Source: Raillietiella orientalis (Eukaryota). Taken from it: a DNA stretch of 41,817 nt. The stretch covers positions 4,960,001-5,001,817 of the forward strand of contig JAYWIR010000010.1 in assembly GCA_036172245.1 (NCBI GenBank). Direction: 5' to 3'. The notes under the pieces are model-generated. The model worked only from the letters and a program-made list of their open reading frames with translations. It was not told the origin of the DNA and searched no databases. The stretch's first letter is position 1. Every line of letters begins with the position of its first letter. The position numbers and the translations under genes are program-made. Positions 1 through 26,532 of this stretch are shown one piece after another.

Positions 1-983
1 CGTTTGCTTGCAGGAAACTGGGCACGCGGGCGAATAGCAAGCAGACGGGCCCGGAGTAACGGCGGCGGTTGCTGTACTGCTTCTGTAACAATTTCTGCCT
101 CCAGGAAACAGTCGTGCATCGTGGCAAGGGAGCTGAGCCTGGATTGAAGCTCCCACGCGGCAATGATGCCTGAGGGAGCTTCTTGGGCAGCAGCATGCCA
201 AGAAGGTGGAAGGTCTCGTGAGAGTTCAACTCCAGGAAGAAAGACTTGGGTGGTTGATCTACAGCGAGCTCGCAGGTACCAAGTGCCCTACGTCTACGCA
301 GCCGCGAGCTCTTGGCTATTCCCCAAAGAGACTACCGATGCTCCCCAGTCCTCCTGAGAACACTTACATCTTACCTTTTGGTTTCGTATTCGGCGATTCT
401 GCTGTTGCACTGGGGTTGTTTCTCTTCAAAGCCCCTCCGACTTCACTGGACCCGGGTTGTGTGGGAGCCCCAACTAGAGCCGGCACGGAGAGCGCGGATC
501 CGCCCGCAGCTGAATGCGGATTCTGTGGCTCTCAGGCTTCCTGATGGTTAAACTTTGTTGTGCCCACCCTTGGGATACCGGGGACAATTGCAGGGGCGTT
601 TGGAAGTGATGCATCTACCGCCAGCCGCGTCCCTAGCAGCTCATTGCGGCTAGAGCCGGATCGTGGCGGCCTGCAGCGACGCCTGGGAGACACGGACGCG
701 CCATCGTTCCGCGTGGCCATTTGCTTCCCATGAAAAGCATTAAGATGGTCGCAGCTGGGAAGCGTTCAGCAACACCCCGCCGGCAACTTAGGAAACATGC
801 AGAGCAACAGGCAGCGATCCCTTCCAAGCGTCTTCCCCCCATTTCTTCCTATTTGCTTTTTCATTTTGTTCCCGTTCTTGCTTGTCCTTCTGCAATTCTG
901 CTGCGGACCAGCGAACCTGGCGAGTCTGCGCACATCCTTCGCGGCAATCCTTCCAACACCTCTGTCAATTCATTTTTCACAAT
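1..983 (-). repeat. Inverted copy of part of the array unit (equivalent to 8864-9834), running off the left edge
   Basis: The reverse complement of 1-983 matches 8864-9834 and the equivalent segments of later units. For example, ORF 163..357(+) matches 9478..9672(-). Similarity stops at cacaat (978-983), which corresponds to attgtg at 8864. Confidence 0.96.
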
Positions 984-2080: not shown

Positions 2081-2129
2081 TAAGAGTCGGTTGTTAGTGA
2101 GTGGCGACCTAAAACGTGGGCGGTGAATG

Positions 2130-2900: not shown

Positions 2901-3087
2901 TTCCTTTGAATAGAAACACCGATTTCGGAAGCATGGCATGTGTTTCCAGGATCAGCGAATTCACGAATCTCCCGTGCAGATCACCAGGAAGAGCGAAGAA
3001 CGCTTTCCGTGTAAGACTTTTGCATGCAACCCTGCTGCAGCGTGAGTGTAGGCAACTGTCCACTAAAGCAGAAAGCGCTGCCGCAAG

Positions 3088-3991
3088 AATTGTCGTCTCG
3101 AGCAACCGCCCGAGACTCCAGCTGGTGGAGGGTTGCGAAGATAAGGCCTCCTTACGATGAGCGCATCTAACGAAAAGCGGCCAGGCGTGAAGAAGCGGCG
3201 CATCCCAATTCTTGGGCTGTCCCCCTGGAGCAGGAGCACGGATTCCACCTTCTTTGCAGTGGAGGAAAAGATGCGCGAGCGTTTCCGCACCAGTCTTTGA
3301 AGACGCAACTCCCCCGCAGACGATGCTTGCGCTCTGGTTGCAATGCAAGCTAACCCATGCGCCATCGGAGCGGGACCACACGCACTCGTCCACGCACGAA
3401 CGAGAGTCCACAAGTTGTTCTGGTGGCACACTGAAGAGTTCACAGCAGCGAAGGACTGCTTTGGGAACATGGCCAGGCGTGGCACCTACTGCCGGACTCC
3501 AGTCGCCCATGGGACGAGTTGATCGTGCGTTCGGCAGGGCGCCCTCACATCCCGCCGGTAGGCAACTGTCCACTAAAGCAGAAAGCGCTGCCGCAAGGGG
3601 CGTGGAGAGCCCACTTGTGCTGGTCCTGCAGCACGTCCTCCACTGGACACGATGGGGAAAGGTGCACGCGCAACCAAGTTCCAAAACGACCACTTGCCTC
3701 GCGACGGTACGGCCGCGTGTCCCGGTTCGTCGGGCGGCAGGGGAATCAAGAGTGGGCTGCCAGGGACGAGCACGAGCTGCCCGAAGGGGAGCTCAAGAAG
3801 CCTCTCGTGGTGGCGCGCTGGGCATGCGGCAGCAACGAAAGCAGCAACTGGGGATGACCGAGAGCTTCAGGAAAACTCTTCATGAGCTCGTACACCGAGT
3901 GGATTCGCAGTACTCGTACATGCCGTGCATCAACGAACGTTTCTTGGAACAGGTGCTTGGAGAACGCAAAATGAGGTGCCTTTCAAGTTGA
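3088..3991 (+). pseudogene. Duox: Duox-like pseudogene, NADPH-binding C-terminal remnant (truncated at the array start)
   Basis: Collinear motifs in changing frames: RPRLQLVEG ~ QPKIRIEG; ILGLSPWSR ~ GIGVTPYAS; RVHKLFWW ~ KKVYFLW; LVLVLQH(V/F)LH ~ IHIFITQFFH; SSKTT ~ LSKTS; FVGRQ ~ HFGRP; ARWACGS ~ GVFSCGP; INERF ~ HFENF. In-frame TGA at 3158-3160. Confidence 0.6.
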
Positions 3992-5122
3992 GTGTTGAGT
4001 GTCCCTTCACGGATGCGTTTCGCGAAACTCCAAGCCGTGCACGCGCCACCATCCCGCTCACCAGCCTGCTTGCTGTTGTCGCACGCAACAAGCAGAGCAT
4101 GCGCCAACGAACCGCGTCTTTGAGGCAAGCGCGCGTTCCACGCCGCTGTTGGTTTTCGATGCATCTCCGACGCCTATTCCGTCCTTCGCGATTCGCCCAA
4201 CGGGCGTGACCTTACCCGCTGATCCCGACGCTCGTACGGGATGTACGGGAAGGGCCGGTGCACAAGTGCGAGGATATTCCCGGGAACGGAACGCGCACGC
4301 CTTGGATGGTCACAACGTACAAACGACGAAAGACTGCCGCTAGACGGGACGAGAAAAGAGGAAAGCGACGAACGGGCCGAATTGTTCGCGAGAATGGGGA
4401 ACAGCGAAGATCGAGCCAAAGTGGGAGCGTGGGCGTGCGAGAAACGCTCCCGTTTCCCTTCCTTCGCACTTTTCTGCGCATGAGCGTGCACCGAACCAGG
4501 ATGAAGTGGCACTCGCCAAAGGCATTGCTCGAGCGTCGGTCGTGTGACGTGGGCGCGGCCACCTCTCACTTCGACAACGATTCCCGTTGCTTAGCAAAGG
4601 AGATTTTTCCTGACGGAAGAATTTGCTGTGAGCTGCTTGCGAATTCGGTTGTCGGATCGACTCGCGCATTTCGTGGAAGAGATCGCAACTCGGAGTATCG
4701 TACTGCTGCGTAATCCAGCGCTTATCTACTTGTGCGTCTACTTGTGAATTCGGAAGTTCGTAGCGGATAGCGAATCCATCCCAACCGGAAGTAATTCGCA
4801 TCCCTGCGAATCCGGAACTTCGGATTCGGTTCCGAAACCAAACGGAAAGCGAGTCTTGTCGCTCGTGACCCCGGAAAAAACACATCTCGCCTATCCTGCC
4901 GCCGAGGTATCCAGGAAGGATTACCGTACTGCCAACGTAGAAAAGCCAGTGGCTGTAAGGTAGCAGGAAAGGAAAGCAGATCTAGAAACAAAGCTGAGCA
5001 CCGGTAAGATGAATGCGAGGTCCGTGAGAATGTGGGAAATCAATCCTGTGGTGCACGTGTGACGCAGGAAGTGATTCGTGGCTTGTGCACGACTTCCAGG
5101 TCGAGTCCCTCGCAATTGGGAG

Positions 5123-8098
5123 ATGTGCTCAGCCTGGATTGGCATGTCTTCCTTGCGTATCGGGAAGGAGGAGTCCGAATCGCCGAAGCAAAAAGCTTCG
5201 TTTCGGACCGCAGACACTGAGAGTGTGTACGCGAAGGCATCCTCTGCTACCGTGTCTTCTCCGAGAATCCAGAAGCAAACGGAAGAGGAGTGGCCACCGG
5301 AAAGCAGCAGTGAGACTTCCCGCACGGAACCAAGCCGAAGAGATGGCTTTGGTTCAGCTGGAAGAAAGGCAAGGGCAAGATGAACGGAGCGGAGGAAGCG
5401 GGGAGCGGACCAGCCGAGACAGTACCTGTTGCGAACGGCTGCCCGACTACCGACAAAAGCTGCAAGAAGCTCGTGAAAGCAACCTCGTTCTTCAAAAGCA
5501 ACCTCACTCCACAAGAGAAGCAGAGCAAGGAATGCAGAAAGAGGGGGAAAAAAGCCAGCAAGGTAGCACGGAAGCGAGACAAGAAACTGAAAGATGAACG
5601 GAAGAAGAAGAGAAACGAGGAGGAAAGACAGAAAGCGAAAGAGAAACGGGAGGAAGATCGGGAATGCAAGAAGAAATGCGGCAACAAACGGAATCGGTTC
5701 GTGCCGAAGAAGGTAGAAGTTCAGGAGCAACAGGAGACGAAGGAACGCGTGCCTGCGAATCGCAAAAGGCAAATGGTTCCGGGTGACGACAAGGAGGCGG
5801 CCGAAACGATTGCTTCCAAGCAGGAGCATGGAAACGGCGAACGAACGAAGACCACGAACGAAAAGGCGAAGAAAGGAAAAACGCTAGCTTGCTTCCGGTT
5901 CTCCAGGCACAGGGGAAGGAGAACCGGAGAAGATGCGACCCTGGCAACGTCCTTGCCCGGGAACGAACCTACGAAACGCGAAGTCTCGAGCAAACTGCGA
6001 GGCAAAGACGGAGGCGGCGACGTAGCCAGGGAGCAGGAAGAGCATTCCCTGCAGATGCTGCTCACGGAGCCGAAGCGGACCGAAGGAAACGACTGCCGCC
6101 ATTCCCGAGTCTGGGGAGCCGATGGCGCCGAACTGCCCTCGGCAGCTGTGGATGGGTGCGCAGGCACACATAGCCTCGAACTGCGAAGAAGAAAGCAGAC
6201 CTCTCCAGATGGGTGGCTGGTCAGCCGCAGCGTTCAGTGCGACTATGGAGATTATTGCCGAGAAGGTTGGTGGAACGGGTTCTGCTTTCCGGCCACTGCA
6301 CGCGCGTCTCCCTCCCTTCGGTGCCCCGGGTGGAGTTTGCGGATGCGCGTCGCTCGTTCTGCACGTTCGCGCACGAACGTACGCGTACGTGTGCGTGGCT
6401 CGTGTGGAGCTCGCAACGCGTTTGCATGCGTTTGGTCGAGAAACTTGCTTTTTCTTCGCTTGTGCGCGAAACAAGGAAGGACGGAAAAGAAGAAGAGCCG
6501 TTGCACGTGTTCTTGACCGGAAGCCGGTAGAAGGGGTGCGCATTTCGGGAAACTGCAGGCTTGTCTGGAAAGAGCGCCGCTGCGTTGCCTTCGGGAATTT
6601 CACAGGCGCGATTTGTTCTTCAAACTCTTTCCGGAACAAGGTGGCCATTTATCCGAGTGCAAGCGGCTGCGTGAGCATTTTGTCGAGCCGAACGTTTCGC
6701 AAGCAAGGCAATTGCACTTGGGATGCGAAGAAAAGGAATGATAATTTCCCTTCGCATGAACGTTTCGTGTGATGTGCTTCTCTCATGGCAGCGTTTCGAC
6801 GTGATGGCGGTGGCGGGAGCGGTGCGCTGACGGCTTGCCAGGCACGCGTGTTGCCACTCGCGTTGTCCGATCGGTTGGATGCATGAAAAATGCTAATGAG
6901 ACGCTTCTTGTTTTTCCCAAAGGGCAAATCGAGTCCGTGGTCCCGGCACTGGAATCCTTGATAACGCGATTGGAGATAGTAGCCACGGCGCTGGAAGCTG
7001 CGGCAACGGAGGCCGAACTTGGCGTGGAGCAGTCGGATGGCTTTGGTAATTGCGACTGTCCGCGTGCAATGGCTTGCTGCTTGCCCGCAAGTCCGATGTG
7101 CACGTCCGCGCTGCCTGGAATAGCCGAAATCGGCAGAGCGACGCGTGCAGCGAAGATGAGCTCGAGCAGCCAGTCTCGCTTTCTGTCGACCTAACACGGC
7201 TTGGCTCATCAGCTCACAACTCACGGGTTGCTAACAGCTCGCAATGGAGAAACAGCGTGCCTTCCATCGTCCAGAATGTCGATACCTTGTTTGCCGCTGT
7301 TTCCAGAGATCAGCAATCCGTGGCTCGAAGATTACGCCCGAATTGGGAAGGGATCTTTGGCCGTCTACCGCAATCTGTCGGCCAAGATCTCGGAAGCGGG
7401 TCGCAAAGCACTCGGACATGGTGCTGAAAGCATTCAAGTAAGCGCTTGGTGTTCATAAGGCCACGATGGAAGGTTCCCTCTCCTCGGTTTCTCCAGTTGC
7501 TAACCATCTTTCTTTCCTGTTGCAGGATCCAGGGGCGTTTGATGCAACTCATATGCTGCTCGCAGGAACCCGACGACTCGAAAGTGCTCGACCTCCTTCA
7601 ACCGCTTTCCGAGTGCATCGTGCAGATCGAGGCATTCGAGCAAAGTCAGCGCGACACCGAGACGCATGTTCACCTGTGTGTGATCAGCCAGAGTGTGGCA
7701 GCCATCCTTTGGGTGACCATGGTAGGTGTTCGGGCACGCATCCGCAAACTTTCTTTCCTTTTCGTAGAGCCCCTATCCCGCGGATGCTGTTGAAGATATG
7801 ATGTTTTTATGCCGACTCCCCGTGAAGCGCGTCCTCCAAGAATGGGAGGAAAAGTGAGTTTCCGGGTCGAAGGGAAGATCGGGAAAAGATGGTGCTTGCT
7901 CGTTTCTTTCAGCGATGATCATGTGTGTTGGGTGAAGTCATGGATGGCCGTATTGTCCGAGTTGCACAGTTTGGCGAAAACCCATCACACGACGTGGGTC
8001 CCATGGCACGCAAAAGGTGCCAGCGTTGAGGAGCACACCCCACCACAACCCCACCTCCACCCTTGCCGACCTCTTCCCACTCTCCTACGCCCCGGTGA
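5123..8098 (+). CDS. CAP: Chimeric gene, copy 1: basic/charged N-terminal region fused to the CAP (adenylyl cyclase-associated protein) N-terminal domain
   Basis: Predicted exons 5123-6265, 6923-7045, 7307-7437, 7526-7721, 7768-7853 and 7913-8098, all with GT..AG introns and compatible phases 1,1,2,0,2. CAP motifs: LESLITRLE (RLE motif), YRNLSAKISEA(V)RKHSDMVLKAF, LLQPLSECIVQIEAF, HLCVISQSVAAILWV, SPYP..VKRVLQEW, HVCWVKSW..LSELHSLAKTHHTT..W, then poly-Pro. This copy has private indels at ~5330 (-1), ~7405 (+1) and ~8040 (+11), which may be real or read errors. An alternative ATG lies at 5144. Confidence 0.8.
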
Positions 8099-8863
8099 CC
8101 CGGAAGGCCTGCTTTGCTTGCACGTTCGAATGCAGGCAAAGCAGTCACAATAAATACGTGTCGAATTTCGAATGATCTTTCAGTTCTTGGATGGTCCACG
8201 ACTGCCAAGTCGCCCATTCCACATTACCGAGAGTTCGGCACCATGCGACGGCACCAACCAAGTTGTGCAGAATGCTCAGCCACTTTTCAGCGTTGTTTTC
8301 ATTGTGCCTCGTTCCCTCGAATGCTCTGAATGAGGAAAACAAGCAGAAAAGAACCGCAAAAGATCAAAGTCGACTTCGACTGCATCCACTCAATTTTGGC
8401 ACACATTGGAATGGGACGCTCCTTTTTCGCTTCCAAATGCAACACGCACCCGGCGCCGTCCAGCGAGAGCCAACTCTCGTGAAACCACTGCTCTCCAAAG
8501 TAGCGAAGATGAAGTTTCAGCCACAGCGGATTCCACCCAAAGCTGACCAAGGCAGCAACAGTCAGAAGATTGGACGGACCCATATTGAGAATCCAAACCG
8601 GGCATGCCGTCCACCCATTTAGTACCAGCCGAACACATTTTCCACTTTTTCCTCACGAAAAGGGAACTCGTTCATCCCTTCGCCCCGCGGTGGGAAGACT
8701 ATGTCCACTGATAGTCAGACTTTTCGGATGACTCAAAATAGGAGATTGCGACTGATCTCGTTGTTTCTGCCTGAATGCCCTGTTCCCTGTTGCACGCAGC
8801 ATCCAGCTGCTAACCGGATTCGCTTCAGTCCTCACGATGTCGGTCGACTCGTGCCGACATGCC
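8099..8863 (+). pseudogene. Decayed C-terminal half of CAP (WH2 and possibly the start of CARP); repeated in units 1-4
   Basis: Directly after the TGA and in the same frame: PGRPALLARSNAGKAVT ~ CAP WH2 (RSALFAQINQGESIT). Weaker traces follow: ALNEENKQKRTAKDQSRLR ~ LKHVSDDMKTHKNPAL and TMSVDSCR ~ SITVDNCK. Canonical splice sites appear to be lost here. Confidence 0.45.
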
Positions 8864-11800
8864 ATTGTGGAAAATGAACTAACAGAGGTGGTGGAAGGAA
8901 TGGCGCGAAGGATGTGCGCACACTCGCCAGGTTCGCTGGTCCGCAGCAGAATTGCAGAAGGACAAGCAAGAACGGGAAGAAAATGAAAAAGCAAATAGGA
9001 AGAAATGAGGGGAAGACGCTTGGAAGGGATCGCTGCCTGTTCCTCTGCATGTTTCCTAAGGTGCCGGCGGGGTGTTGCTGAACGCTTCCCAGCTGCGACC
9101 ATGTTAATGCTTTTCGTGGGACGCAAATGGCCACGCGGAACGATGGCGCGTCCGTGTCTCCCAGGCGTCGCTGCAGGCCGCCACGATCCGGCTCTAGCCG
9201 CAATGAGCTGCTAGGGACGCGGCTGTCGGTAGATGCATCACTTCCAAACGCTCCTGCAATTGTCCCCGGTATCCCGAGGGTGGGCACAAAGTTTAACCAC
9301 CAGGAAGCCTGAGAGCCATTCAGCTGCGGGCGGATCCGCGCTCTGCGTGCCGGCTATAGTTGGGGCTCCCACACAAACCCGGGTCCAGTGAAGTCGGAGG
9401 AGGTTTGAAGAGAAACAAATCCAGTGCAACAGCAGAATCGCCGAATACGAAACCAAAAAGGCCAGATGTAAGTGTTCTCAGGAGGACTGGGGACCATCGG
9501 TAGTCTCGCCGGGGAATAGCCAAGAGCTCGCGGCTGCGAAGACGTAGGGCACTTGGTACCTGCGAGCTCGCTGTAGATCAACCACCCAAGTCTTTCTTCC
9601 TGGAGTTGAACTCTCACGAGACCTTCCACCTTCTTGGCATGCTGCTGCCCCAGAAGCTCCCTCAGGCATCATTGCCGCGTGGGAGGTTCAATCCAGGCTC
9701 AGCTCCCTTGCCACGATGCACGACTGTTTCCTGGAGGCAGAAGTTGTTACAGAAGCAGTACAGCAGCCGCCGCCGTGACTCCGGGCCCGTCTGCTTGCTG
9801 TTCGCCCGCGTGCCCAGTTTCCTGCAAGCAAACGCTACCGTTCGCAAGGCGATCCTGCTGGAGGTGCAGCTGTTCTTCCTGGTCGGTGAGACGTGATGCG
9901 AAGTGCGCAGTGGGCCACGTTGGACAGTATGCCGAGCATACCAAGAAAGTGGATGGGATTGTTTCGCGAGGATGGGCGTCGAAGGCAGAACGAACTCGAG
10001 TGGAAACGTTGGGAATGCTTTCGGTACACTTTCGATGAGACCGATCAGGTGTGAGAAAATCCGAACGTGGAGGAAAGCGTGTATTCCATTTTCTCCAGTT
10101 GTTGACCGTATGCGCCTTGCGCCGCGTCAGAAAAGACGCAGGAGAGCTGTCCTGCTCCGGCGCTGCAAGACGGCCCCGGATCGTCGGCAATCTGAGGAAC
10201 AGGGTCGGGCAAACCGCCTTCGCTTTTTTCGCAGCGCCTCCCTTTTTTGCAACGGAGGAGGGTGCTGAATGCCGGCTGTGCCCTCGCCTGCCTCAGACTG
10301 CTTGGCAACGAATAACGTGGTGCAGAGCGGAGGTGTTTGACGGAATGCCTTTCAGCTCGTTTTCTCCGGGAACCACGTGAGGTCTCGCGACCTGCTTCGA
10401 TCTTCCTCGGCCATCAGCGAACCTTTCTGCGCGCAAGCCTGCGCCGAACTGCGTGCGCAGTGGCGCGACCACGCGCGTGTCTGCGACAAGAAAGGACCAC
10501 TTGTTCCCGAATGGCGATCCCGGAGATGGAGGCCGGCAGGCTTTGCAGATGGAACGCGGAAGAGCTGGCCCGGTCATTGCGGAAGCCGGTCGGATAGCTG
10601 GCTTCTTGCGAAACGACACATCTGCACAACGTCGCTGCCGTTGGCCGTTTCATTTCCTCCCTCCGTTCAATCAAACCTTCGCTACGCGCACGTTCTCCGC
10701 ACCAGAAATGCTGCCGCTTCACCCTTCCCAGCTGTCACCTCTGCAGCACTTCTTCATCGTGCATCCTTTCTTGTGGGTCGCGCGCATACACCAGTTTCAC
10801 CCATCCATCACAAGATGACGCATCTCTGCTGATCTTCGCAGAACCTCTATCGTGAAGCCCGTTTCGCTCGAGCCTCGTTTCCACCGAGGATGGGCAAGAA
10901 GGTAGGCAGCGAAAAAGCGCACGTGCGAAATGCGCCAGCTCACTTGCCATGCACTTTCTCCTTCACGTCACACGGCTTTCCTGCTGCGTTTCACGCCGTC
11001 GTATGCACCGTCACAGCAAACGTTTCCATGCAAATGAAGCACCAGGAGAGAGTCCGCTTCCAGCGACCTCGCTTGCCCCCGCACCGTTTCGCATATCCCG
11101 AGCACAGGCTAGAACGCCGTGACCAGCAAGCAAGCTGTTGCCATCAGGCAGTGGAACGCTGGCTGCCGGTGCGTGCCTGCCGCATCCAACGATTTTTCCT
11201 TGGGTTCGTGCGGTGGTATCCGTCATCGGCGGCAAGCTCCCACGTGGAGCGCATCGCGCTTCTGCAAGCACGCTCTTGCTGCGCGTTCAGCCGTGTGCGG
11301 CGGAGCGGCGCCGCGTTGCTGGCGATCTTACCGGGAAGAAGGGAGGAGAAGGCAGGGAAACGAAGGACGTCGGACAGGTGGACTGCCAGTCTAACGTGGC
11401 GTCGCACGGAAAGTCCGGAACAGTCCACAAATACTGATGTAAGAAACACGCAAAAAGTGTGAGAACGAGACGATGACAGGGGTTTCCGCGTTCGGCCGTT
11501 CCCTGCAAGCGGAACCGGCGCTGCATAACGAACATCTCGCTGCTCGCTCATATCTTCTGGGAGTTCAGGCCGCCTGGCAGCCGTCGTCATGTTGACTTCA
11601 GCGAAAGAAGTGTCGTCTCGAGGAACCGCCCGAGACTCCAGCTGGTGGAGGGTTGCGAAGATAAGGCCTCCTTACGATGAGCGCATCTAACGGAAAGCGG
11701 CCAGGCGTGAAGACGCGGCGCATCCCAATTCTTGGGCTGTCCCCCTGCAGCAGGAGCACGGATGCAGTGGACGAAAAGATGCGGGAGCGTTTCCGCACCA

Positions 11801-12472
11801 GTCTTTGAAGACGCAACTCACCCGCAGACGATGCTTGCGCTCTGGTTGCAATGCAAGCTAACCCATGCGCCATCGGAGCGGGAACACACGCACTCGTCCA
11901 CGCACGAACGAGAGTCCACAAGTTGTTCTGGTGGCACACTGAAGAGTTCACAGCAGCGAAGGACTGCTTTGGGAACATGGCCAGGCGTGGCACCTTCTGC
12001 CGGACTCAGTCGCCCATGGGACGAGTTGATCCCTCCGGTAGGCAACGTCCACTAAAGCAGAAAGCGCTGCCACAAGGGGCGTGGAGAGCCACTTGTGCTG
12101 TTCCTGCAGCACTTCCTCCACTGGACACGATGGGGAAAGGTGCACGCAGCAAAGTTCCAAAACGACCACTTGCCTCGGACGATACCGCCGCATGTCCCGG
12201 TTCGTCGGGCGGCAGGAGAATCAAGAGTGGGCTGCCAAGGGCGAGCACAAGCTGCCTGAAGGGAAGCCGAAGCTTCTCGTGGTGGCGCGCTGGGCATGCG
12301 GCAGCAACGAAAGCAGCAACTGGGGATGATCGAGAGCTTCAGGAAAACTCTTCATCAAGTCGTACACCGAGTGGATTTGGTATACTCGTAGATGCAGTGC
12401 ATGAACGAAGATTTATTGGAACAGGTGCGCTCATCCGCCTGAGAATGGGAAATGAGGTGCCTTTCAAGTTGA
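8864..12472 (+). pseudogene. Duox: Duox-like pseudogene (second EF-hand to C-terminus), units 1/2
   Basis: Motifs in order: NELTEVVEGM (EF-hand); RSSLRHHCRVGGSI ~ HTDLRHIMGVGIAI; RNRVGQTAFAFF ~ HPTIRKKAYNFF; IFLGHQRTFLRASLRR ~ FFLGPGIVYTLDKIVSLR; HLFPNG ~ DLLPSD; DTSAQ ~ LTSAP; then the NADPH-domain motifs from 11611. The motifs sit in different frames in every copy. Confidence 0.6.
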
Positions 12473-13606
12473 GTGTTGAGTGTTCCTCCACGGATGCGTT
12501 TCGCGAAACTCCAAGCCGTGCACGCGCCACCATCCCGCTCACCAGCCTGCTTGCTGTTGTCGCAGGCAACACGCATAGCATGCGCCAACGAACTGTGTCT
12601 TTGAGGCAAGCGCGCGTTCCACGCACCGCTGCTGCGCTGAACAAAAAATCCGACGCCTATTCCGTCCTTCGCGATTCGCCAAACGGGCGTGTGCTGCGCT
12701 GATCCCGACGCTCGTACGGGATGTACGGGAAGGGCCGGTGCACAAGTGCGAGGATATTTTAGGGAACGAAACGCGCGCACGCCTTGGATGGTCACAACGT
12801 ACAAACGACGAAAGACTGCCGCTAGACGGAACGGGAAAAGAGGAAACTAACGAACGGGGTGAATTGTTCCCGAGAATGGGGAAGAGGGAAGATCGAGCCA
12901 AAGTGGAAGCGTGGGCGTGCGAGAAACGCTCCCGTTTACGTTCCTTCGCACTTTTCTGTGCATGAGCGTGCACGGAACCAGGATGAAGTGGCACTCGCCA
13001 AACGCATTGCTCGAGCGTCGGTTGTGTGTGACGTCAGCACGGCCACATCTCAGTTCGGCAACGATTCCTGTTGCTTAGCAAAGGAGATTTTCCCTGACGG
13101 AAGAAACTGCTGTGTGCTGCTTGCGAATTCGGTTGTCGGATCGACTCGCGCATTTCGTGGAAGAGATCGCAACTCGGAGTATCGTACTGCTGCGTAATCC
13201 AGCGCTTATCTACTTGTGCGTCTACTTGTGAATTCGGAAGTTCGTAGCGGATAGCGAATCAATCCCAACCGGAAGTAATTCGCATCCCTGCGAATCCGGA
13301 ACTTCGGATTCGGTTCCGAAACCAAACGGAAAGCGAGTCTTGTCGCTCGTGACCCCGGAAAAAACACATCTCGCCTATCCTGCCGCCGAGGTATCCAGGA
13401 AGGATTACCGTACTGCCAACTTAGAAAAGCCAGTGGCTGTAATTTAGCAGGAAAGGAAAGCAGATCCAGAAACAAAGCTGAGCACCGGTAAGATGAATGC
13501 ACGGTCCGTGAGAATGTGGGAAATCAATCCTGTGGTGCACGTGTGACGCAGGAAGTGATTCGTGGCTTGTGCACGACTTCCAGGTCGAGTCCCTCGCAAT
13601 TGGGAA

Positions 13607-16520
13607 ATGTGCTCAGCCTGGATTGGCATGTCTTCCCTGCGTATCGGGAAGGAGGAGTCCGAATCGCCGAAGCAAAAAGCTTCGTTTCTGACCGCAGACA
13701 CTGAGAGTCTGTACGCGAAGGCATCCTCTGCGACCGTGTCTTCTCCGAGAATCCAGAAGCAAACGGAAGAGGAGTGGCCACCGGAGAGCAGCAGTGAGCC
13801 TTCCCGCACGGAAGCCAAGCCGAAGAGATGGATTTGGTTCAGCTGGAAGAAAGGCAAGGGCAAGAAGAACGGAGCGGAGGAAGCGGGGAGCGGACCAGCC
13901 GAGACAGTACCTGTTGCGAACGGCTCCCCGACTACCGAGAAAAGCTGCAAGAAGCTCGTGAAAGCAACCTCGTTCTTCAAAAGCAACCTCACTCCACAAG
14001 AGAAGGAGAGCAAGGAATGCAGAAAGAGGGGGGAAAAAGCCAGCGAGGAAGCACGGAAGCGAGACCAGAAACGGAAAGATGAACGGAAGAAGAAGAGAAA
14101 CGAGGAGGAAAGACAGAAAGCGAAAGAGAAACGGGAGGAAGATCGGGAATGCAAGAAGAAATGCTGCAACAAACGGAATCGGTTCGTGCTGAAGAAGGTA
14201 GAAGTTCGGGAGCAACAGGAGACGAAGGAACGCGTGCCTGCGAATCGCAAGGCAATAGGCCGGGTGGCGGCTGAAGGCGGCCAGGCTGTTTTCAGCAGGG
14301 CATGGAAACGTGCAGACAGACAGAAGACCACAGACGAAAAAAGTGAAGAAGGAAAAACTGCTGGCTGCCCAGTTCTCCCAGCACAAGGGGCTTGATGCAG
14401 CCCCTGGCAACGTGCTACAGAACAAGGCTCTGGCCCTGAACAGTGAAGCAGCTGCAGGCAAGACAGGGCGACATGGCAAGAAACAGAAGGGCATGCTACT
14501 CTGACCACTGCTCCTGAGCCAAACCAGACAACGAGGAAGCATTCTCTGCCATTCCAGTCCCCAGGAGTCAGACAACATGAACTACCCTCGGCCTGGCCAG
14601 CCGGATAGGTGCTGCAGGCACACAACCTCGACTGCAGAGAAGGCGGAGCCTCCCGGACCGGACAACAGTGTGCTGGCGTTCAGCCGGCCTATGAGGATGT
14701 GCCGGAAGGTTAGGTGAACGGGTTCTGCCTTCGGCCACTGCACACGCGTCTGCTCCCGTTCGGTGCCCCGGGTGGAGTTTGCGGATGCGCGTCGCTCGTT
14801 CTGCACGTTCGCGCACGAACGTACGCGTACGTGTGCGTGGCTCGTGTGGAGCTCGCAACGCGTTTGCATGCGTTTGGTCGAGAAACTTGCTTTTTGTTCG
14901 CTTGCGCGCGAAACAAGGAAGGACGGAAAAGAAGAAGAGCCGTTGCACGTGTTCTTGACCGGAAGCCGGTAGAAGGGGTTGCGCATTTCGGAAAACTGCA
15001 GGCTTGTCTGGAAAGAGCGCCGCTGCGTTGCCTTCGGGAATTTCACAGGCGCGATTTGTTCTTCAAACTCTTTCCGGAACAAGGTGGCCATTTATCCGAG
15101 TGCAAGCGGCTGCGTGAGCATTTTGCCGAGCCGAACGTTCCGGAAGCAAGGCAATTGCACTTGGGATGCGAAGAAAAGGAACGATAATTTCCCTTCGCAC
15201 GAACGTTTCGTGTGCTTCTCTCATGGCAGCGTTTCGACGTGATGGCGGTGGCGGGAGCGGTGCGCCGACGGCTTGCGAGGCACGCGTGTTGCCGTCGCGT
15301 TGTCCGATCGGTTGAATGCATGAAAAATGCTAATGAGACGCTTCTTGTTTTTCCCAAAGGGCAAATCGAGTGCGTGGTCCCGGCACTGGAATCCTTGATA
15401 ACGCGATTGGAGATAGTAGCCACGGCGCTGGAAGCTGCGGCAACGGAGGCCGAACTTGGCGTGGAGCAGTCGGATGGCTTTGGTAATTGCGACTGTCCGC
15501 GTGCAATGGCTTGCTGCTTGCGCAAGTCCGATGTGCACATCCGCGCTGCCTGGAATAGCCGAAATCGGCAGAGCGACGCGTGCAGCGAAGATGAGCTCGA
15601 GCAGCCATTCTCGCTTTCTGTCGACCTAACACGGATTGGCTCATCAGCTCACAACTCACGGGTTGCTAACAGCTCGCAATGGAGAAACAGCGTGCCTTCC
15701 ATCGTCCAGAATGTCGATACCTTGTTTGCCGCTGTTTCCCGAGATCAGCAATCCGTGGCTCGAAGATTACGCCCGAATTGGGAAGGGATCTTTGGCCGTC
15801 TACCGCAATCTGTCGGCCAAGATCTCGGAAGCGGTTCGCAAGCACTCGGACATGGTGCTGAAAGCATTCAAGTAAGCGCTTGTTGTTCATAAGGCCACGA
15901 TGGAAGGTTCCCTCTCCTCGGTTTCCCAGTTGCTAACCATCTTTCTTTCCTGTTGCAGGATCCAGGGGCGTTTGATGCAACTAATATGCCGCTCGCAGGA
16001 ACCCGACGACTCGAAAGTGCTCGACCTCCTTCAACCGCTTTCCGAGTGCATCGTGCAGATCGAGGCATTCGAGCAAAGTCAGCGCGACACCGAGACGCAT
16101 GTTCACCTGTGTGTGATCAGCCAGAGTGTGGCAGCCATCCTTTGGGTGACCATGGTAGGTGGTCGGGCACGCATCCGCAAACTTTCTTTCCTTTTCGTAG
16201 AGCCCCTATCCCGCGGATGCTGTTCAAGACATGATGTTTTTATGCCGACTCCCTGTGAAGCGCGTCCTCCAGGAATGGAAGCAAAAGTGAGTTTCCGGGT
16301 CGAAGGGAAGATCGGGAACAGATGGTGCTTGCTCGTTTCTTTCAGCGATGATCATGTGTGTTGGGTGAAGTCGTGGATGGCCGTATTGTCCGAGTTGCAC
16401 AGTTTGGCGAAAACCCATCACACGACGTGGGTTCCATGGCACGCAAAAGGTGCCAGCGTTGAGGAGCACACCCCACCTCCACCCTTGCCGACCTCTTCCC
16501 ACTCTCCTACGCCCCGGTGA
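13607..16520 (+). CDS. CAP: Chimeric basic-region/CAP-N gene, copy 2
   Basis: Exon 1 is open from 13607 until a private divergent patch (~14253-14716) creates a stop at 14395. Exon 2 is 15360-15482. The exon 3 acceptor reads ttcccg instead of ttccag. Remaining CAP exons are open, and the last exon (16346-16520) ends EEHTPPPPLPTSSHSPTPR*. Confidence 0.75.
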
Positions 16521-17285
16521 CCCGGAAGGCCTGCTTTGCTTGCACGTTCGAATGCAGGCAAAGCAGTCACAATAAATACGTGTCGAATTTCGAATGCTCT
16601 TTCAGTTCTTGAATGGTCCACGACTGCCAAGTCGCCCATTCCACATTACCGAAAGTTTGGCACCATGCGACGGCACCAACCAAGTTGTGCAGAATGCTCA
16701 GCCACTTTTCAGCGTTGTTTTCATTTTGCCTCGTTCCCTCGAATGCTCTGAATGAGGAAAACAAGCAGAAAAGAACCGCAAAAGATCAAAGTCGACTTCG
16801 ACTGCATCCACTCAATTTTGGCACACATTGGAATGGGACGCTCCTTTTTCGCTTCCAAATGCAACACGCACCCTGCGCCGTCCAGCGAGAGCCAACTCTC
16901 GTGAAACCACTGCTCTCCAAAGTAGCGAAGATGAAGTTTCAGCCACAGCGGATTCCACCCAAAGCTGACCAAGGCAGCAACAGTCAGAAGATTGGACGGA
17001 CCCATATTGAGAATCCAAACCGGGCATGCCGTCCACCCATTTAGTACCAGCCGAACAAATTTTCCACTTTTTCCTCACGAAAAGGGAACTCGTTCATCCC
17101 TTCGCACCGCGGTGGGAAGACTATGTCCACTGCTCGTCAGACTTTTCGGATGACTCAAAATAGGAGATTGCGACTGATCTCGTTGTTTCTGCCTGAATGC
17201 CCTGTTCCCTGTTGCACGCAGCATCCAGCTGCTAACCGGATTCGCTTCAGTCCTCACGATGTCGGTCGACTCGTGCCGACATGCC

Positions 17286-20200
17286 ATTGTGGAAAATCTC
17301 ATGGACTCACTGTGGAAGGAATGGCTGAAAGGATGTGCGCAGACTCGCCAGGTTCGCTGGTCCGCAGCAGAATTGCAGAAGGACAAGCAAGAACGGGAAG
17401 AAAATGAAAAAGCAAATAGGAAGAAATGGGGGGAAGACGCTTGGAAGGGATCGCTGCCTGTTCCTCTGCATCTTTCCTAAGGTGCCGGCGGGGTGTTGCT
17501 GAACGCTTCCCAGCTGCGACCATCTTAATGCTTTTCGTGGGAAGCAAATGGCCACGCGGAACGATGGCGCGTCCGTGTCTCCCAGGCGTCGCTGCAGGCC
17601 GCCACGATCCGGCTCTAGCCGCAATGAGCTGCTAGGGACGCGGCTGGCGGTAGATGCATCACTTCCAAACGCTCCTGCAATTGTATCCCCGGTATCCCAA
17701 GGGTGGGCACAACACAGTTTAACCAGCAGGAAGCCTGAGAGCCACAGAATCCACATTCAGCTGCGGGCGGATCCGCGCTCTCCGTGCCGGCTCTAGTTGG
17801 GGCTCCCACACAACCCGCGTCCAGTGAAGTCGGAGGGGCTTTGAAGAGAAACAACCCCAGTGCAACAGCAGAATCGCCGAATACGAAACCAAAAAGGTAA
17901 GATGTAAGTGTTCTCAGGAGGACTGGGGAGCATCGGTAGTCTCTTTGGGGAATAGCCAAGAGCTCGCGGCTGCGTAGACGTAGAGCACTTGGTACCTGCG
18001 AGCTCGCTGTAGATCAACCACCCAAGTCTTTCTTCCTGGAGTTGAACTCTCACGAGACCTTCCACCTTCTTGGCATGCTGCTGCCCAAGAAGCTCCCTCA
18101 GGCATCATTGCCGCGTGGGAGGTTCAATCAGGCTCAGCTCCTTTGCCACGATGCACGACTGTTTCCTGGAGGCAGAAATTGTTACAGAAGCAGTACAGCA
18201 ACCGCCGCCGTGACTCCGGGCCCGTCTGCTGCTATTCGCCCGCGTGCAGTTTCCTGCAAGCAAACGCTACCGTTCGCGGGGCGATCCTGCTGGACGTCCT
18301 GCTCTTCTTCCTGGTCGGTGAGACGTGATGCGAAGTGCGCAGTGGGCCACGTTGGACAGCATGCCGAGCATACCAAGAAAGTGGATGCGATGTTTTCGCA
18401 AGGATGGGCGTCGAAGGCAGAACGAACTCGAGTGCAAACGTTGGGAATGCTTTCGGTACACTTTTGACGAGACCGATCAGGTGTGAGAAAATCCCAACGT
18501 GGGAGAGCGTGTATTCATCTTCTCCAGGTGTTGACCGTATGCGCCTTGCGCCGCGTCAGAAAAGGCCTGGGAGAGCTGTCCTGCTCCGGCGCTGCAAGAC
18601 GGCCCCGGATCGTCGGCAATCCGAGCAACAGGGTCGGGCAAACCGCCTTCGCTTTTTTCGCAGCGCCTCCCTTTTGTGCAACGGAGGAGGGTGCTGTGCC
18701 CTCGCCTGCCTCGCACTGCTTGGCAACGAATGACGTCGTGCAGAGCGGAGGCAGCAGCCACCTCGAGAGCTAGCTCGTTTCTCCGGGAACGCCTGCCGCG
18801 CACAATCTTCGCTTCGATCTTCCTCGGCCATCAGCGAACCTTTCTGCGCGCAATCCTCCCCCCAACTGCGTGCGCAGTGGCGCGACAACGCGCGTGTCTA
18901 CGACAAGAAAGGAACACTTGTTCCCGAATGGCAATCCCGGAGATGGAGGCCGGCAGGCTTTGCAGATGGAACGCGGAAGAGCTGGCTTGGTCATTGCGGA
19001 AGCCGGTCGGATAGCTGGCTTCTTGCGAAACGACGCATCTGCACAACGTCGCTGCCGTTGGCCGTTTCATTTGTTCCCTCCGTTCAAGCAAGCCTTCGCT
19101 ACGCGAACGTTCTCCGCACCGGAAATGCTGCCGCTCCACCCTTCCCAGCTGTCACCTCTGCAGCACTTCTTCATCGTGCATCCTTTCTTGTGGGTCACGC
19201 GCATACACCAGTTTCACCCATCCATCACGAGGTGACGCATCTCTGCTGATCTTCGCAGAACCTCTATCGTGAAGCCCGTTTTGCTCGTGCCTCGTTTCCA
19301 CCGAGGATGGTCAAGAAGGTAGGCAGCGAAAAAGCGCACGTGCGAAATGCGCCAGCTCACTTGCCATGCAGTTTCTCCTTCACGTCACACGGCTTTCCTG
19401 CTGCGTTTCACGCCGTCGTATGCACCGTCACAGCAAACGTTTCCATGCAAATGAAGCAACAGGAGAGAGTCCGCTTCCACCGACCTCGCTTGCCCCCGCA
19501 CCGTTTCGCATGTCGAGCACAGGCTAGAACGCCGTGACCAGCAAGCAAGCTGTTGCCATCAGGCAGTGGAACGCTGGCTGCCGGTGCGTGCCTGCCGCAT
19601 CCAACGATTTTTCCTTGGGTTCGTGCGGTGGTATCCGTCATCGGCGGCAAGCTGCCACGTTGAGCGCATCGCGCTTCTGCAAGCACGCTCTTGCTGCGCG
19701 TTCAGCCGTGTGCGGCGGCGCCGCGGTGCTCGCGATCTTTCCGGGAAGAAGGGAGGATGAAGGCAGGGAAAGGAAGGACGTCGGACAGGTGGACTGCCAG
19801 TCTAACGTGGCGTCGCACGGAAAGGCCGGAACAGTCCACAAATACTCATGTAAGAAACACGCAAAAAGTGTGAGAACGAGACGATGACCGGGGTTTGCGC
19901 GTTCGGCCGTTCCCTGCAAGCGCAACCGGCGCTGCGTAACGAACATCTCGCTGCTCGCTCATATCTTCTGGCAGTTCAGGCCGCCTGGCAGCCGTCGTCA
20001 TGTTGACTTCAGCGAAAGAAGTGTCGTCTCGAGGAACCGCCCGAGACTCCAGCTGGTGGAGGGTTGCGAAGATAAGGCCTCCTTACGAGGAGCGCATCTA
20101 ACGGAAAGCGGCCAGGCGTGAAGAAGCGGCGCATCCCAATTCTTGGGCTGTCCCCCTGGAGCAGGAGCACGGATGCAGTGGAGGAAAAGATGCGGGAGCG

Positions 20201-20864
20201 CATCTTTTCCGCACCAGTCTTTGAAGACGCAACTCCCCCGCAGACGATGCTTGCGCTCTGGTTGCAATGCAAGCTAACCCATGCGCCATCGGAGCGGGAA
20301 CACTTTTGCTGAATCCGCTGCGAACGAAGTCCACAAGTTGTTCTGTTGGCACACTGAAAGATCACAGCAGCGAAGGACTGCTTTGAGGCCTGTAGAAGCC
20401 AAGGCATGGCACCTTTGCGGACCTCAGTCGCCCATGGGACGGGTTGGTGATCCCGCCGGTAGGCAACCTCCACTAAGCGGAAAGCGCCTGCTGTGTGACC
20501 TGTATGGCTGCCGGCGCCTTCCTCCTGGGACACCAGTAGGGGAAGGGTACTGCAACAAAGTTCTCTCCCACCCCTCCTGACAAGGTACCGGCGTATCCCT
20601 GGTCGTCAGGCAACAGGGAATCAAAATGTGCAAGAGACTCGAGCACAGAGCTTTGTAAAAACTCAGAAGCCTCTCGTGGTGGCGCGCTGGGCATGCTGCT
20701 GCGCTGGCAAAGCAGCAATACAGGAGATGACCGAAGGCTTCAGGAAAACTCTTCTTGAGCTCGTACACCGAGTGGATTCGCAGTACTCGTACATGCCGTG
20801 CATCAACGAACGTTTCTTGGAACAGGTGCTTGGAGAATGCAAAATGAGGTGCCTTTCAAGTTGA
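17286..20864 (+). pseudogene. Duox: Duox-like pseudogene, units 2/3
   Basis: Repeat of 8864-12472 with the same collinear motifs. Private divergent patch at ~20305-20720. Confidence 0.6.
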
Positions 20865-21997
20865 GTGTTGAGTGTCCCTTCACGGATGCGTTTCGCGAAA
20901 CTCCAAGCCGTGCACGCGCCACCATCCCGCTCACCAGCCTGCTTGCTGTTGTCGCACGCAAAAAGCAGAGCATGCGCCAACGAACCGTGTCTTTGAGGCA
21001 AGCCCGCGTTCCACGCACCGCTGCTGCGCTGAACAAAAAATCCCACGCCTATTCCGTCCTTCGCGATTCGCCCAACGGGCGTGTGCTGCGCTGATCCCGA
21101 CGCTCGTACGGGATGTACGGGAAGGGCCGGTGCACAAGTGCGAGGATATTCCAGGGAACGGAACGCGCACGCCTTGCATGGTCACAACGTACAAACGACG
21201 AAAGACTGCCGCTAGACGGGACGAGAAAAGAGGAAAGCGACGAACGGGCCGAATTGTTCCCGAGAATGGGGAACAGCGAAGATCGAGCCAAAGTGGGAGC
21301 GTGGGCGTGCGAGAAACGCTCCCGTTTCGCTTCCTTCGCACTTTTCTGCGCATGAGCGTGCACCGAACCAGGATGAAGTGGCACTCGCCCAAGGCATTGC
21401 TCGAGCGTCGGTTGTGTGACGTGAGCACGGCCACCTCTCACTTCGACAACGATTCCCGTTGCTTAGCAAAGGAGATTTTTTCCTGACGGAAGAAGGGAAT
21501 TTGCTGTGTGCTGCTTACCGAATTCGGTTGTCGGATCGACTCGCACATTTCGTGGAAGAGATCGCAACTCAGAGTATCGTACTGCTGCTCCAGCGCTTAT
21601 CTGTGACCGTCTACTTGTGAATTCGGAAGTTCGTAGCGGATAGCGAATCCATCCCAACCGGAAGTAATTCGCATCCCTGCGAATCCGGAACTTCGGATTC
21701 GGTTCCGAAACCAAACGGAAAGCGAGTCTTGTCGCTCGTGACCCCGGAAAAAACACATCTCGCCTATCCTGCCGCCGAGGTATCCAGGAAGGATAACCGT
21801 ACTGCCAAATTAGAAAAGCCAGTGGCTGTAAGGTAGCAGGAAAGGAAAGCAGATCTAGAAACAAAGCTGAGCCACCGGTAAAGATGAATGCAGGGTCCGT
21901 GAGAATGTGGAAATCAATCCTGTGGTGCACGTGTGACGCAGGAAGTGATTCGTGAAGCATTGCACGACTTCCAGGTCGAGTCCCTCGCAATTGGGAG

Positions 21998-26473: not shown

Positions 26474-26532
<59 letters not shown>

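What the first reader, a model, noticed from the sequence alone, without database searches (positions are those of the whole stretch)
5123..8098. Tandemly amplified chimeric gene: highly basic ~380-aa region spliced to the CAP/Srv2 N-terminal half
Seen: consensus exon lengths of 1144+123+130+196+86+175 nt join in frame through five GT..AG introns to give a ~617-aa protein, present five times. Established: canonical CAP begins essentially at its RLE oligomerisation motif, followed by the helical-folded domain, poly-Pro, WH2 and CARP, and animals usually carry only one or two CAP genes. Here a long K/R/E-rich extension is added, the CAP part is strongly diverged but keeps frame and splice sites, and the C-terminal half is dropped. 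Inference: a young, fast-evolving amplified paralog family, a pattern typical of germline, sex-linked or conflict-related genes.
Basis: partly seen in the sequence, partly recalled or inferred. Interest (0 to 1): 0.85.

Follow-up and report, generated by a model that had tools for sequence, protein, structure and literature searches.

The report
Decaying tandem array of truncated CAP genes
An 8.4-kb DNA unit repeated about five times carries a shortened, diverged copy of the actin regulator CAP, but the proposed 617-residue fusion protein is intact in none of the five copies, so most or all copies are probably decaying duplicates.

Summary
The repeat is real. There are five head-to-tail copies, 91-96% identical, in units of about 8.4-8.5 kb running from 3082 to the window end. 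The consensus exon lengths 1144+123+130+196+86+175 nt are right, and the consensus reads open for 617 aa. Exons 4 and 6 match Pfam CAP_N. No CAP C-terminal half occurs anywhere in the window.

The 617-aa protein is not "present five times". Every copy carries a frameshift, nonsense or splice lesion. Exon 1 is open only in copy 4, whose CAP part is broken.

Exon 1 has no Pfam family and no homologue. It evolves as if neutral: codon positions 24/25/23 and synonymous:nonsynonymous 20:52. Its donor, GTTGGT, is atypical.

The CAP exons do show constraint. Synonymous:nonsynonymous is 12:15 (p 0.011) and they vary half as much as introns (p 0.001). They read open in 3 of 5 copies.

Best reading: an amplified, 3'-truncated CAP paralogue (oligomerisation plus helical-folded domains) undergoing birth-and-death decay. 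The chimera is a consensus construct. Expression, organism, parental gene and sex linkage could not be tested.

The parts
3082..41817 (+). Tandem array of about 4.55 units of 8.4-8.5 kb. Unit starts lie at 3082, 11602, 20013, 28473 and 36885. The array runs off the window end.
   Evidence: Self-BLAST. Unit-to-unit identity is 91-96%.
5123..8098 (+). Copy 1 (the finding). It is broken by a 1-nt deletion in exon 1 (5329), a 1-nt insertion in exon 3 (7405) and an 11-nt insertion in exon 6 (8037).
5123..6265 (+). Proposed exon 1, copy 1. It is a K/R/E-rich ORF (1143 nt here, 1144 in the consensus). The donor is AAG|GTTGGT, with T at +3, unlike the other four donors.
   Evidence: No Pfam family and no homologue.
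6883..6885 (+). ATG inside 'intron 1', in frame with exon 2 and 13 codons upstream of it. It is an alternative start for a CAP-only product. It is in frame in copies 1, 2, 4 and 5; in copy 3 an extra T puts it out of frame.
   Evidence: Read
6923..7045 (+). Exon 2, copy 1. It holds the N-terminal coiled-coil/oligomerisation region with ITRLEIV. The Met of an ordinary CAP aligns to Ile384, just after the acceptor.
   Evidence: (consensus 384-600 against P0002 1-209)
7307..7437 (+). Exon 3, copy 1 (131 nt; 130 in the other four). It encodes the start of the helical-folded domain.
7526..7721 (+). Exon 4, copy 1. It matches CAP_N profile positions 38-100.
7768..7853 (+). Exon 5, copy 1 (86 nt).
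7913..8098 (+). Exon 6, copy 1. It holds the end of the helical-folded domain (HHTTWVPW) and a short proline-rich tail. The consensus stop is the TGA at 8096-8098, but it is out of frame in copy 1 because of the 11-nt insertion.
8149..8154 (+). AATAAA about 50 nt after the consensus stop. It is unchanged in copies 1-4; copy 5 is cut before it.
   Evidence: Read
13607..16520 (+). Copy 2. The CAP part (exons 2-6) reads open to the stop, 235 aa. The exon-3 acceptor is CG. The second half of exon 1 is hyper-diverged.
14240..14708 (+). Hyper-diverged block in exon 1 of copy 2. It is homologous to the other copies (global score 70 against shuffles of -82 +/- 9). It carries 12 indels, only 2 of them multiples of 3, and 4 in-frame stops.
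21998..24958 (+). Copy 3. Exon 1 has -3 and +8 nt and a nonsense codon (22489). The CAP part is open, but two 1-nt deletions alter the tail and the consensus stop is lost.
30463..33387 (+). Copy 4. It is the only copy with exons 1-3 intact (381-aa exon-1 ORF). Exon 4 has 23 substitutions, -13 nt and a lost donor (32844-33026). Exon 5 has -1 nt.
38887..41817 (+). Copy 5, cut 8 nt before the stop. Exon 1 has -9 and -1 nt (39325) and a nonsense codon (40008). Exon 2 has an in-frame -9. The CAP part is open to the window end.
1..983 (-). Inverted partial copy of unit segment 8864-9834, lying on the left flank of the array.
   Evidence: 94.6% over 985 nt, minus strand

Best explanation
Shown: the window holds a head-to-tail array of at least 4.5 units of 8.4-8.5 kb. 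Each unit carries a DNA-level (intron-retaining), 3'-truncated and diverged paralogue of the actin regulator CAP/Srv2. What is kept is 'N-CAP': the N-terminal coiled-coil oligomerisation region, the complete helical-folded domain and the first prolines of P1, followed by a stop and an AATAAA. WH2, P2 and CARP are gone.

Inferred: the family is in birth-and-death decay. Since amplification the CAP exons have been, or for a time were, under purifying selection, yet 2 of 5 copies are dead in the CAP part and a third has lost a splice acceptor.

The upstream 381-codon K/R/E-rich ORF ('exon 1') is a real, non-chance open frame in the consensus. But it has no relatives, evolves neutrally and is broken in 4 of 5 copies. 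The 617-aa fusion is therefore most likely a consensus construct. Exon 1 may be a lineage-specific ORF or a 5' leader, and at most a short-lived fusion.

If any member is expressed, the likeliest product is an N-CAP-only protein of about 235-250 aa. It would start at the in-frame ATG at 6883 or at an equivalent site. By analogy with isolated N-CAP, it would oligomerise through its coiled coil, possibly with the parental CAP. It would then act on cofilin-decorated filament ends without being able to recharge actin monomers. This last step is inference only.
For: Array and exon map.

CAP identity:
- CAP_N scores 40.3 bits on exon 4 and E 4.8e-4 on exon 6.
- Exon 4 matches CAP1 helical-folded-domain structures at E 3.6e-7.
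- The spliced consensus aligns colinearly with 12 real helical-folded-domain segments and keeps 11 of the 17 columns that are at least 90% conserved.
- BLAST to P0013 gives E 2.8e-26.

Truncation: none of the 95 ORFs of at least 90 aa in 1-13700 hits CAP_C. Two CAP_C-bearing proteins match only the N-terminal exons by tblastn.

Lesions: 5 of 5 copies carry one or more. The nonsense substitutions in copies 2, 3 and 5 and the +8, +11 and -13 nt changes cannot be homopolymer errors. Several 1-nt indels are shared between copies.

Constraint:
- CAP exons: synonymous:nonsynonymous 12:15 against a random expectation of 490:1643 (p 0.011).
- CAP exons: variable sites 27/710 against 83/1104 in introns (p 0.0012).
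- Exon 1: 20:52 against 751:2678 (p 0.14), codon positions 24/25/23, 3 stop gains, and variable sites 69/1144 (p 0.18 against introns).
- All six exons together have fewer indel events than introns, 15 against 27 (p 3.6e-4; copy 2's exon-1 block left out of the exon count).

Exon 1:
- The exon-1 ORF is more than chance: 0 of 2000 forward-strand dinucleotide shuffles reach 381 aa.
- It has no Pfam family and no homologue at near or longer lengths, and its Atlas recognition is 961 with no hit.

N-CAP works on its own and needs oligomerisation: passages of PMC7543520 and the abstract start of PMC3530777.
Against: - No transcript data exist, so neither the fusion nor the short product is shown.
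- Exon 1 has few indels (5 events in four copies). It is fully open in copy 4 and in the consensus, which fits a coding past.
- The random synonymous:nonsynonymous expectation ignores transition bias, so the CAP-exon signal (27 changes) is modest.
- Gene conversion between copies could mimic constraint.
- Only part of the array is seen, and intact full-length members may lie beyond the window.
- Assembly quality is unknown. The single-base indels in copies 1 and 5 could be errors, although copy 5 also has a nonsense substitution.
- The low identity to other CAPs could reflect a poorly sampled host lineage rather than fast evolution.
Confidence: 0.6

Rival explanations
1. A functional, young chimeric gene family encodes about 617 aa (a basic extension fused to N-CAP). 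The window happens to show mostly defective members, as in many ampliconic families.
For: - The consensus of the five copies is open over 1854 nt with compatible phases at all five introns.
- The exon-1 ORF exceeds all 2000 forward shuffles.
- The exon-2 acceptor has a good polypyrimidine tract, and the ordinary CAP Met position reads ATC just behind it. This fits capture of a former 5'UTR acceptor.
- Exons have fewer indels than introns.
Against: - 0 of 5 copies are intact.
- Exon 1 is broken in exactly the three copies whose CAP part is open.
- Exon-1 substitutions are flat over codon positions, with 3 stop gains.
- Copy 2's exon-1 block diverged through indels that are not multiples of 3.
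- The donor GTTGGT is atypical.
- The exon-1 frame runs about 83 codons past the donor, so a frame-compatible GT is easy to find.
- No parent gene for exon 1 was found.
Confidence: 0.1
2. A wholly dead array: a macrosatellite-like amplification of a segment that happened to contain a CAP pseudogene. No member has been functional since amplification.
For: - Lesions occur in all five copies.
- Copies differ by 2-12% in the gene region.
- No other gene or domain lies in the unit.
- An inverted partial unit lies on the flank.
Against: - The CAP exons vary half as much as introns and are enriched for synonymous changes.
- The CAP part is open in 3 of 5 copies, with near-identical protein sequences.
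- The consensus CAP part keeps an open frame and all splice sites despite about 60-65% amino-acid divergence from other CAPs. A long-dead pseudogene would not do this, unless the host's own CAP is equally divergent.
Confidence: 0.25
3. Assembly artefact. The lesions, or the array itself, come from errors or mis-joined repeats in a long-read assembly.
For: - Many of the 1-2-nt indels lie beside short homopolymers.
- Copy 3 has a striking number of them, 17 of the 30 listed.
- At 5329 and 7405 the short-read contigs of run X1 carry the consensus state, not copy 1's. However, those contigs are other copy variants, not copy 1 itself.
Against: - The copies differ by hundreds of substitutions and by large blocks.
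- Several indels are shared by two copies.
- The nonsense substitutions and the +8, +11 and -13 nt changes are not typical read errors.
- An independent DNA run holds 41% of the sampled words. Its contigs include a further copy variant that bridges unit parts.
Confidence: 0.05

Closest known systems
Canonical CAP/Srv2 (CAP1, CAP2, Capulet): its N-terminal half, 'N-CAP'
   Same: - It has a coiled-coil region with RLE, followed by a full-length helical-folded domain.
- CAP_N passes the Pfam cut-off on one exon alone.
- It aligns colinearly with 12 real domains.
- A proline run begins after HHTT..W.
- N-CAP is a separable functional unit (PMC7543520, passages read).
   Different: - WH2, P2 and CARP/CAP_C are absent.
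- 6 of the 17 near-invariant columns are changed.
- Identity to the nearest domains is 35-41%.
- It is multi-copy, and most copies carry lesions.
- The canonical Met position reads Ile.
Tandemly amplified chimeric or partial gene duplicates such as Sdic of Drosophila melanogaster, and the ampliconic X/Y families
   Same: A partial duplicate of a housekeeping cytoskeletal gene, possibly with a new 5' exon, amplified head to tail with many defective members. Sdic's tandem nature comes from the abstract start of PMC7475035 in the listing. Its chimeric origin is recalled, not read.
   Different: There is no evidence here of expression, sex linkage or an intact chimeric copy. No donor gene for the 5' ORF was found.
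Proteins with several CAP_N domains and no CAP_C in the public library (P0001, P0002, P0007)
   Same: Repeated N-CAP modules without the C-terminal half. They were the top-scoring hits to exon 4.
   Different: There the repeats lie inside one uninterrupted polypeptide and score 356-666 bits against CAP_N. Identity to the array is only 24-26%. Their organisms are unknown.

Membership tests
CAP/Srv2 family | Helical-folded domain (Pfam CAP_N, PF21938) above the gathering score | tested here: met
   Exon 4 alone scores 40.3 bits against a cut-off of 27 (profile positions 38-100). Exon 6 covers positions 132-157 at E 4.8e-4. The alignment is colinear over the whole domain. The spliced protein could not be scanned as a whole.
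CAP/Srv2 family | N-terminal coiled-coil oligomerisation region (RLE motif) | tested here: met
   ITRLEIV lies in exon 2 of all five copies. Consensus 384-600 aligns to residues 1-209 of P0002, including its LATRLENL. No coiled-coil prediction was run. The name 'RLE motif' is recalled; it was not found in the review.
CAP/Srv2 family | C-terminal half: P1, WH2, P2 and CARP (Pfam CAP_C, PF08603) | tested here: not met
   No CAP_C hit in the 95 ORFs of 1-13700. tblastn with the CAP_C-bearing P0013 and P0003 matches only the N-terminal exons anywhere in the window. Only a PPPPLP tail remains.
CAP/Srv2 family | Intact reading frame and splice sites | tested here: not met
   The full 617-aa frame is intact in 0 of 5 copies. 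The CAP part alone is open in 3 of 5, and one of those has a CG acceptor.
CAP/Srv2 family | Binding of cofilin-actin and pointed-end depolymerisation | not testable with these tools
   This needs biochemistry. The spliced protein could not be folded here.
Amplified chimeric gene family (Sdic-like or ampliconic) | Head-to-tail amplification of the gene-bearing unit | tested here: met
Amplified chimeric gene family (Sdic-like or ampliconic) | A transcript that joins sequence from two parental genes | not testable with these tools
   No RNA run is listed. No parent for exon 1 was found.
Amplified chimeric gene family (Sdic-like or ampliconic) | Purifying or positive selection on the chimeric ORF | tested here: not met
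   Exon 1: dN/dS-like ratio 0.73, p 0.14, codon positions 24/25/23 and 3 stop gains. Only the CAP exons show constraint.
Amplified chimeric gene family (Sdic-like or ampliconic) | Sex linkage or germline expression | not testable with these tools
   No genome is held. The three listed runs are DNA with coded identities.

The most novel reading that the evidence does not exclude
Some members of the array, including ones beyond the window, may be expressed as N-CAP-only proteins, with or without the basic extension. These would co-oligomerise with the parental CAP through the retained coiled coil. They would then uncouple filament-end depolymerisation from monomer recharging, acting as a dosage-amplified, dominant modifier of actin turnover. 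That is the kind of gene that gets amplified under germline or genetic conflict. The constraint seen on the CAP exons since amplification would be its footprint.
Probability: 0.15. Interest if true: 0.7.

Novelty: new member of a known kind. Interest (0 to 1): 0.35.

Why it matters
CAP is normally a one- or two-copy, highly conserved actin regulator. Drosophila has a single homologue (PMC7543520). An amplified family that keeps only the N-CAP half would be a natural separation-of-function experiment. It would also be a candidate for dosage-driven or conflict-driven evolution.

As it stands, the window shows mostly broken copies and no expression data. The safe value is a caution: the 617-aa 'chimera' should not be annotated as a gene from the consensus alone. 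Three full-text searches found no paper describing an amplified or chimeric CAP paralogue.

Tried and rejected
- Whole-genome search for the parental CAP: no genome is held for this window.
- Expression: no RNA holder is listed. Only one DNA run holds the stretch, at share 0.41.
- Laying runs X1-X3 on 5000-24999. 12 contigs of X1 were laid, 4 at 99% or more and 8 at 95-99%. X2 and X3 gave none. The contigs at 5329 and 7405 carry the consensus state, but they are other copy variants (2-30 other differences each). They neither confirm nor refute copy 1's lesions.
- Homologues of exon 1: none at near lengths or longer lengths. Shorter lengths were not searched. Atlas gave no usable hit.
- Exon 4 by word-indexed search at longer lengths: none. 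Atlas: no usable hit.
- HMMER over 1.84 billion representatives: 13 hits at E up to 0.001, and 12 of the 13 carry CAP_N. P0012 is a low-complexity or unrelated hit.
- Rfam: 0 matches in the window.
- Earlier scan notes: nothing by place, sequence or words.
- The minus-strand ORFs across exon 1 (320-411 aa) were rejected as composition effects. Six-frame shuffles of exon 1 give mean longest ORFs of 198 aa and reach 381 aa, and these ORFs have no Pfam hit.
- A sub-threshold RBD_RDR6 hit on the minus strand of intron 1 (21.3 bits against a cut-off of 27) was treated as chance.
- No structure prediction was run. The spliced protein is not a contiguous translation of the window, and single exons would not be informative.
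- No supplementary files were opened.
Full report
**Observation**

The sequence at 5123-8098 recurs four more times on the + strand: 13607-16520, 21998-24958, 30463-33387 and 38887-41817. The last copy is cut by the window end. Identity to copy 1 is 91.0%, 95.2%, 93.8% and 96.4%.

Self-comparison shows units of about 8.4-8.5 kb starting at 3082, 11602, 20013, 28473 and 36885. The array therefore begins inside the window and runs off its right end. Positions 984-3047 are unique in the window, and 1-983 is an inverted copy of unit segment 8864-9834. Tandem Repeats Finder, whose longest period is 500, sees only a (TG)28 tract.

**Gene model**

I aligned the five copies and mapped the proposed exons onto each. 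In copy 1 the exons are:

| Exon | Copy 1 coordinates |
|---|---|
| 1 | 5123-6265 |
| 2 | 6923-7045 |
| 3 | 7307-7437 |
| 4 | 7526-7721 |
| 5 | 7768-7853 |
| 6 | 7913-8098 |

All introns are GT..AG, with two exceptions. Copy 2 has CG for the exon-3 acceptor, and copy 4 has lost the exon-4 donor.

**No copy is intact**

Lesions per copy:

| Copy | Exon 1 | CAP part (exons 2-6) |
|---|---|---|
| 1 | -1 nt at 5329 | +1 nt in exon 3 (7405); +11 nt in exon 6 (8037) |
| 2 | Second half hyper-diverged: 12 indels, only 2 of them multiples of 3, and 4 in-frame stops | Exon-3 acceptor is CG; otherwise open to the stop |
| 3 | -3 and +8 nt; nonsense codon at 22489 | Two 1-nt deletions in the exon-6 tail; otherwise open |
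| 4 | Intact (also exons 2-3) | Exon 4: 23 substitutions, -13 nt, donor lost; exon 5: -1 nt |
| 5 | -9 and -1 nt (39325); nonsense codon at 40008 | In-frame -9 nt in exon 2; open to the window end |

The 617-aa frame is therefore intact in 0 of 5 copies. Exon 1 is open only in copy 4. The CAP part is open in copies 2, 3 and 5, which are exactly the copies whose exon 1 is broken.

Many 1-2-nt indels lie beside short homopolymers. But several are shared between copies, and the nonsense substitutions and larger indels are not plausible read errors.

**What the CAP part is**

- Exon 4 alone passes the Pfam CAP_N cut-off: 40.3 bits against 27, E 4.3e-10, profile positions 38-100. Exon 6 matches positions 132-157 at E 4.8e-4.
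- Exon 4 matches mouse and human CAP1 helical-folded-domain structures (6rsw, E 3.6e-7).
- HMMER over 1.84 billion representatives gave 13 hits at E up to 0.001. 12 of the 13 carry CAP_N.
- The spliced consensus, joined only inside scripts, aligns to these hits over the whole domain. The best is P0013 at 35% over 154 aa, E 2.8e-26. It also aligns to the N-terminus of P0002 from residue 384, which includes the RLE stretch.
- It keeps 11 of the 17 columns that are at least 90% conserved among 12 real helical-folded-domain segments.
- Its identity to the nearest group (P0013, P0011, P0004, P0010) is 35-41%, whereas those are 41-57% identical to each other. It is diverged, but part of this could be a lineage effect.
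- No CAP_C is present. None of the 95 ORFs of at least 90 aa in 1-13700 hits it. tblastn with two CAP_C-bearing proteins finds only the N-terminal exons in all five units.
- The frame ends after HHTTWVPWHAKG...PPPPLP...stop. An AATAAA lies about 50 nt downstream, at 8149-8154, and is unchanged in copies 1-4.

The retained part thus equals 'N-CAP' (oligomerisation domain plus helical-folded domain) as defined in the review PMC7543520 (passages). The retained introns show a DNA-level partial duplication, not a retrocopy.

**What exon 1 is**

The copy-4 product is 381 aa with pI 9.75 and 90 K+R against 60 D+E. A strongly basic core lies around residues 121-200.

It has no Pfam family. It has no homologue among proteins of 209-667 or 668-2000 aa. 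The Atlas search gave a recognition value of 961 and no hit.

The region is T-poor (143 T in 1144 nt), so long ORFs arise easily. Dinucleotide shuffles give a mean longest forward ORF of 139 aa, and six-frame shuffles reach 381 aa. However, 0 of 2000 forward shuffles reach 381 aa, so the consensus frame is more than chance.

Three points weaken the proposed fusion. In copy 1 the frame continues about 83 codons past the proposed donor. The donor AAG|GTTGGT has T at +3, unlike the other four donors. An ATG at 6883 inside 'intron 1' is in frame with exon 2 in four of five copies. The exon 1-exon 2 join is therefore one frame-compatible possibility, not an observation.

Two points fit capture of a former 5'UTR acceptor. 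The exon-2 acceptor is good, and the position of an ordinary CAP Met reads ATC three codons behind it.

**Selection since amplification**

Substitutions were counted among copies, with the hyper-diverged blocks masked.

| Region | Variable sites | Codon positions 1/2/3 | Synonymous:nonsynonymous | Random expectation | dN/dS-like ratio | p |
|---|---|---|---|---|---|---|
| Exon 1 | 69/1144 (6.0%) | 24/25/23 | 20:52 | 751:2678 | 0.73 | 0.14 |
| CAP exons | 27/710 (3.8%) | 6/8/13 | 12:15 | 490:1643 | 0.37 | 0.011 |
| Introns | 83/1104 (7.5%) | - | - | - | - | - |

Exon 1 also has 3 stop gains, and its variable-site rate is not different from introns (p 0.18). The CAP exons vary less than introns (p 0.0012).

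Indel events are fewer in exons than in introns: 15 against 27, p 3.6e-4, leaving out copy 2's exon-1 block. 6 of the 15 exon events are multiples of 3, against 4 of the 27 intron events (p 0.13).

The CAP exons therefore carry a modest signature of purifying selection since amplification, and exon 1 does not. The expectation ignores transition bias, and gene conversion could contribute to the signal.

**Other features of the copies**

Copy 2's exon-1 block (14240-14708) is homologous to the others but only about half identical (global score 70 against shuffles of -82 +/- 9). Copy 4 has similar patches. This patchiness, together with X1 contigs that match none of copies 1-3 exactly, suggests further and older family members elsewhere.

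**Interpretation**

The best-supported reading is an amplified, 3'-truncated, diverged CAP paralogue in birth-and-death decay. Most or all of the copies seen are defective. The CAP half was under constraint at least for a time after amplification. The 617-aa chimera exists only as a consensus.

The consensus CAP part keeps its frame and all its splice sites despite about 60-65% amino-acid divergence from other CAPs. This argues that its single-copy ancestor was a functional gene rather than an old pseudogene, unless the host's own CAP is equally divergent. That could not be checked, because no genome is held.

If a member is expressed, the likely product is an N-CAP-only protein. Isolated N-CAP oligomerises and promotes cofilin-dependent severing and pointed-end depolymerisation (PMC7543520, passages; PMC3530777, abstract start). 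Such a product could act alone or by mixing into parental CAP oligomers. This is inference.

**Limits**

The organism, parental gene, array extent, sex linkage and expression are all unknown. Three full-text searches found no report of an amplified or chimeric CAP paralogue. Sdic (PMC7475035) and the ampliconic Y families (PMC8794474) were seen only as listing entries. No supplementary files were consulted.

**Verdict**

This is a new member of a known kind (tandemly amplified partial gene duplicates). Interest is 0.35.

Noticed in passing
window 26476-26531: A perfect (TG)28 microsatellite lies in the spacer of the third unit. The unit-to-unit alignments break at this point (9627/9653, 18063/18089, 26474/26545), so the tract length differs between units.
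   Followed up: partly
window 1-983 (minus strand) against 8864-9834: The left flank of the array holds an inverted partial unit, 87-97% identical to the matching part of four units. It is followed by about 2.1 kb of sequence unique in the window (984-3047).
   Followed up: partly
window 3048-3087 and 3558-3597 (also 12038, 28910, 37334): A 40-nt element lies at the very start of the array and again about 500 nt inside each unit. It could mark the original duplication junction.
   Followed up: no
proteins P0001, P0002, P0007 (library hits): These public proteins of unknown origin carry 2-4 complete CAP_N domains in one chain and no CAP_C. In P0002, N-terminal RLE-type stretches are repeated as well. 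Repeated N-CAP modules therefore exist elsewhere as intact polypeptides.
   Followed up: partly
window 14240-14708; 32520-32610 and 32960-33070: Short blocks in copies 2 and 4 are far more diverged (about 50% identity) than the surrounding 90-96% identical sequence. This looks like conversion from older paralogues. In copy 2 the block ends almost exactly at the proposed exon-1 donor.
   Followed up: partly
window 6224-6619, minus strand: A sub-threshold Pfam hit to RBD_RDR6 (21.3 bits, cut-off 27, E 3e-4) lies in an ORF antisense to intron 1. It is probably chance.
   Followed up: no
CAP_N profile position 100 (exon 4/5 boundary, e.g. 7721|7768): Six of the 13 library hits (P0004, P0005, P0006, P0008, P0009, P0010) stop matching CAP_N at profile position 100-102, which is where exon 4 ends here. 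This hints at an intron position shared with other organisms.
   Followed up: no
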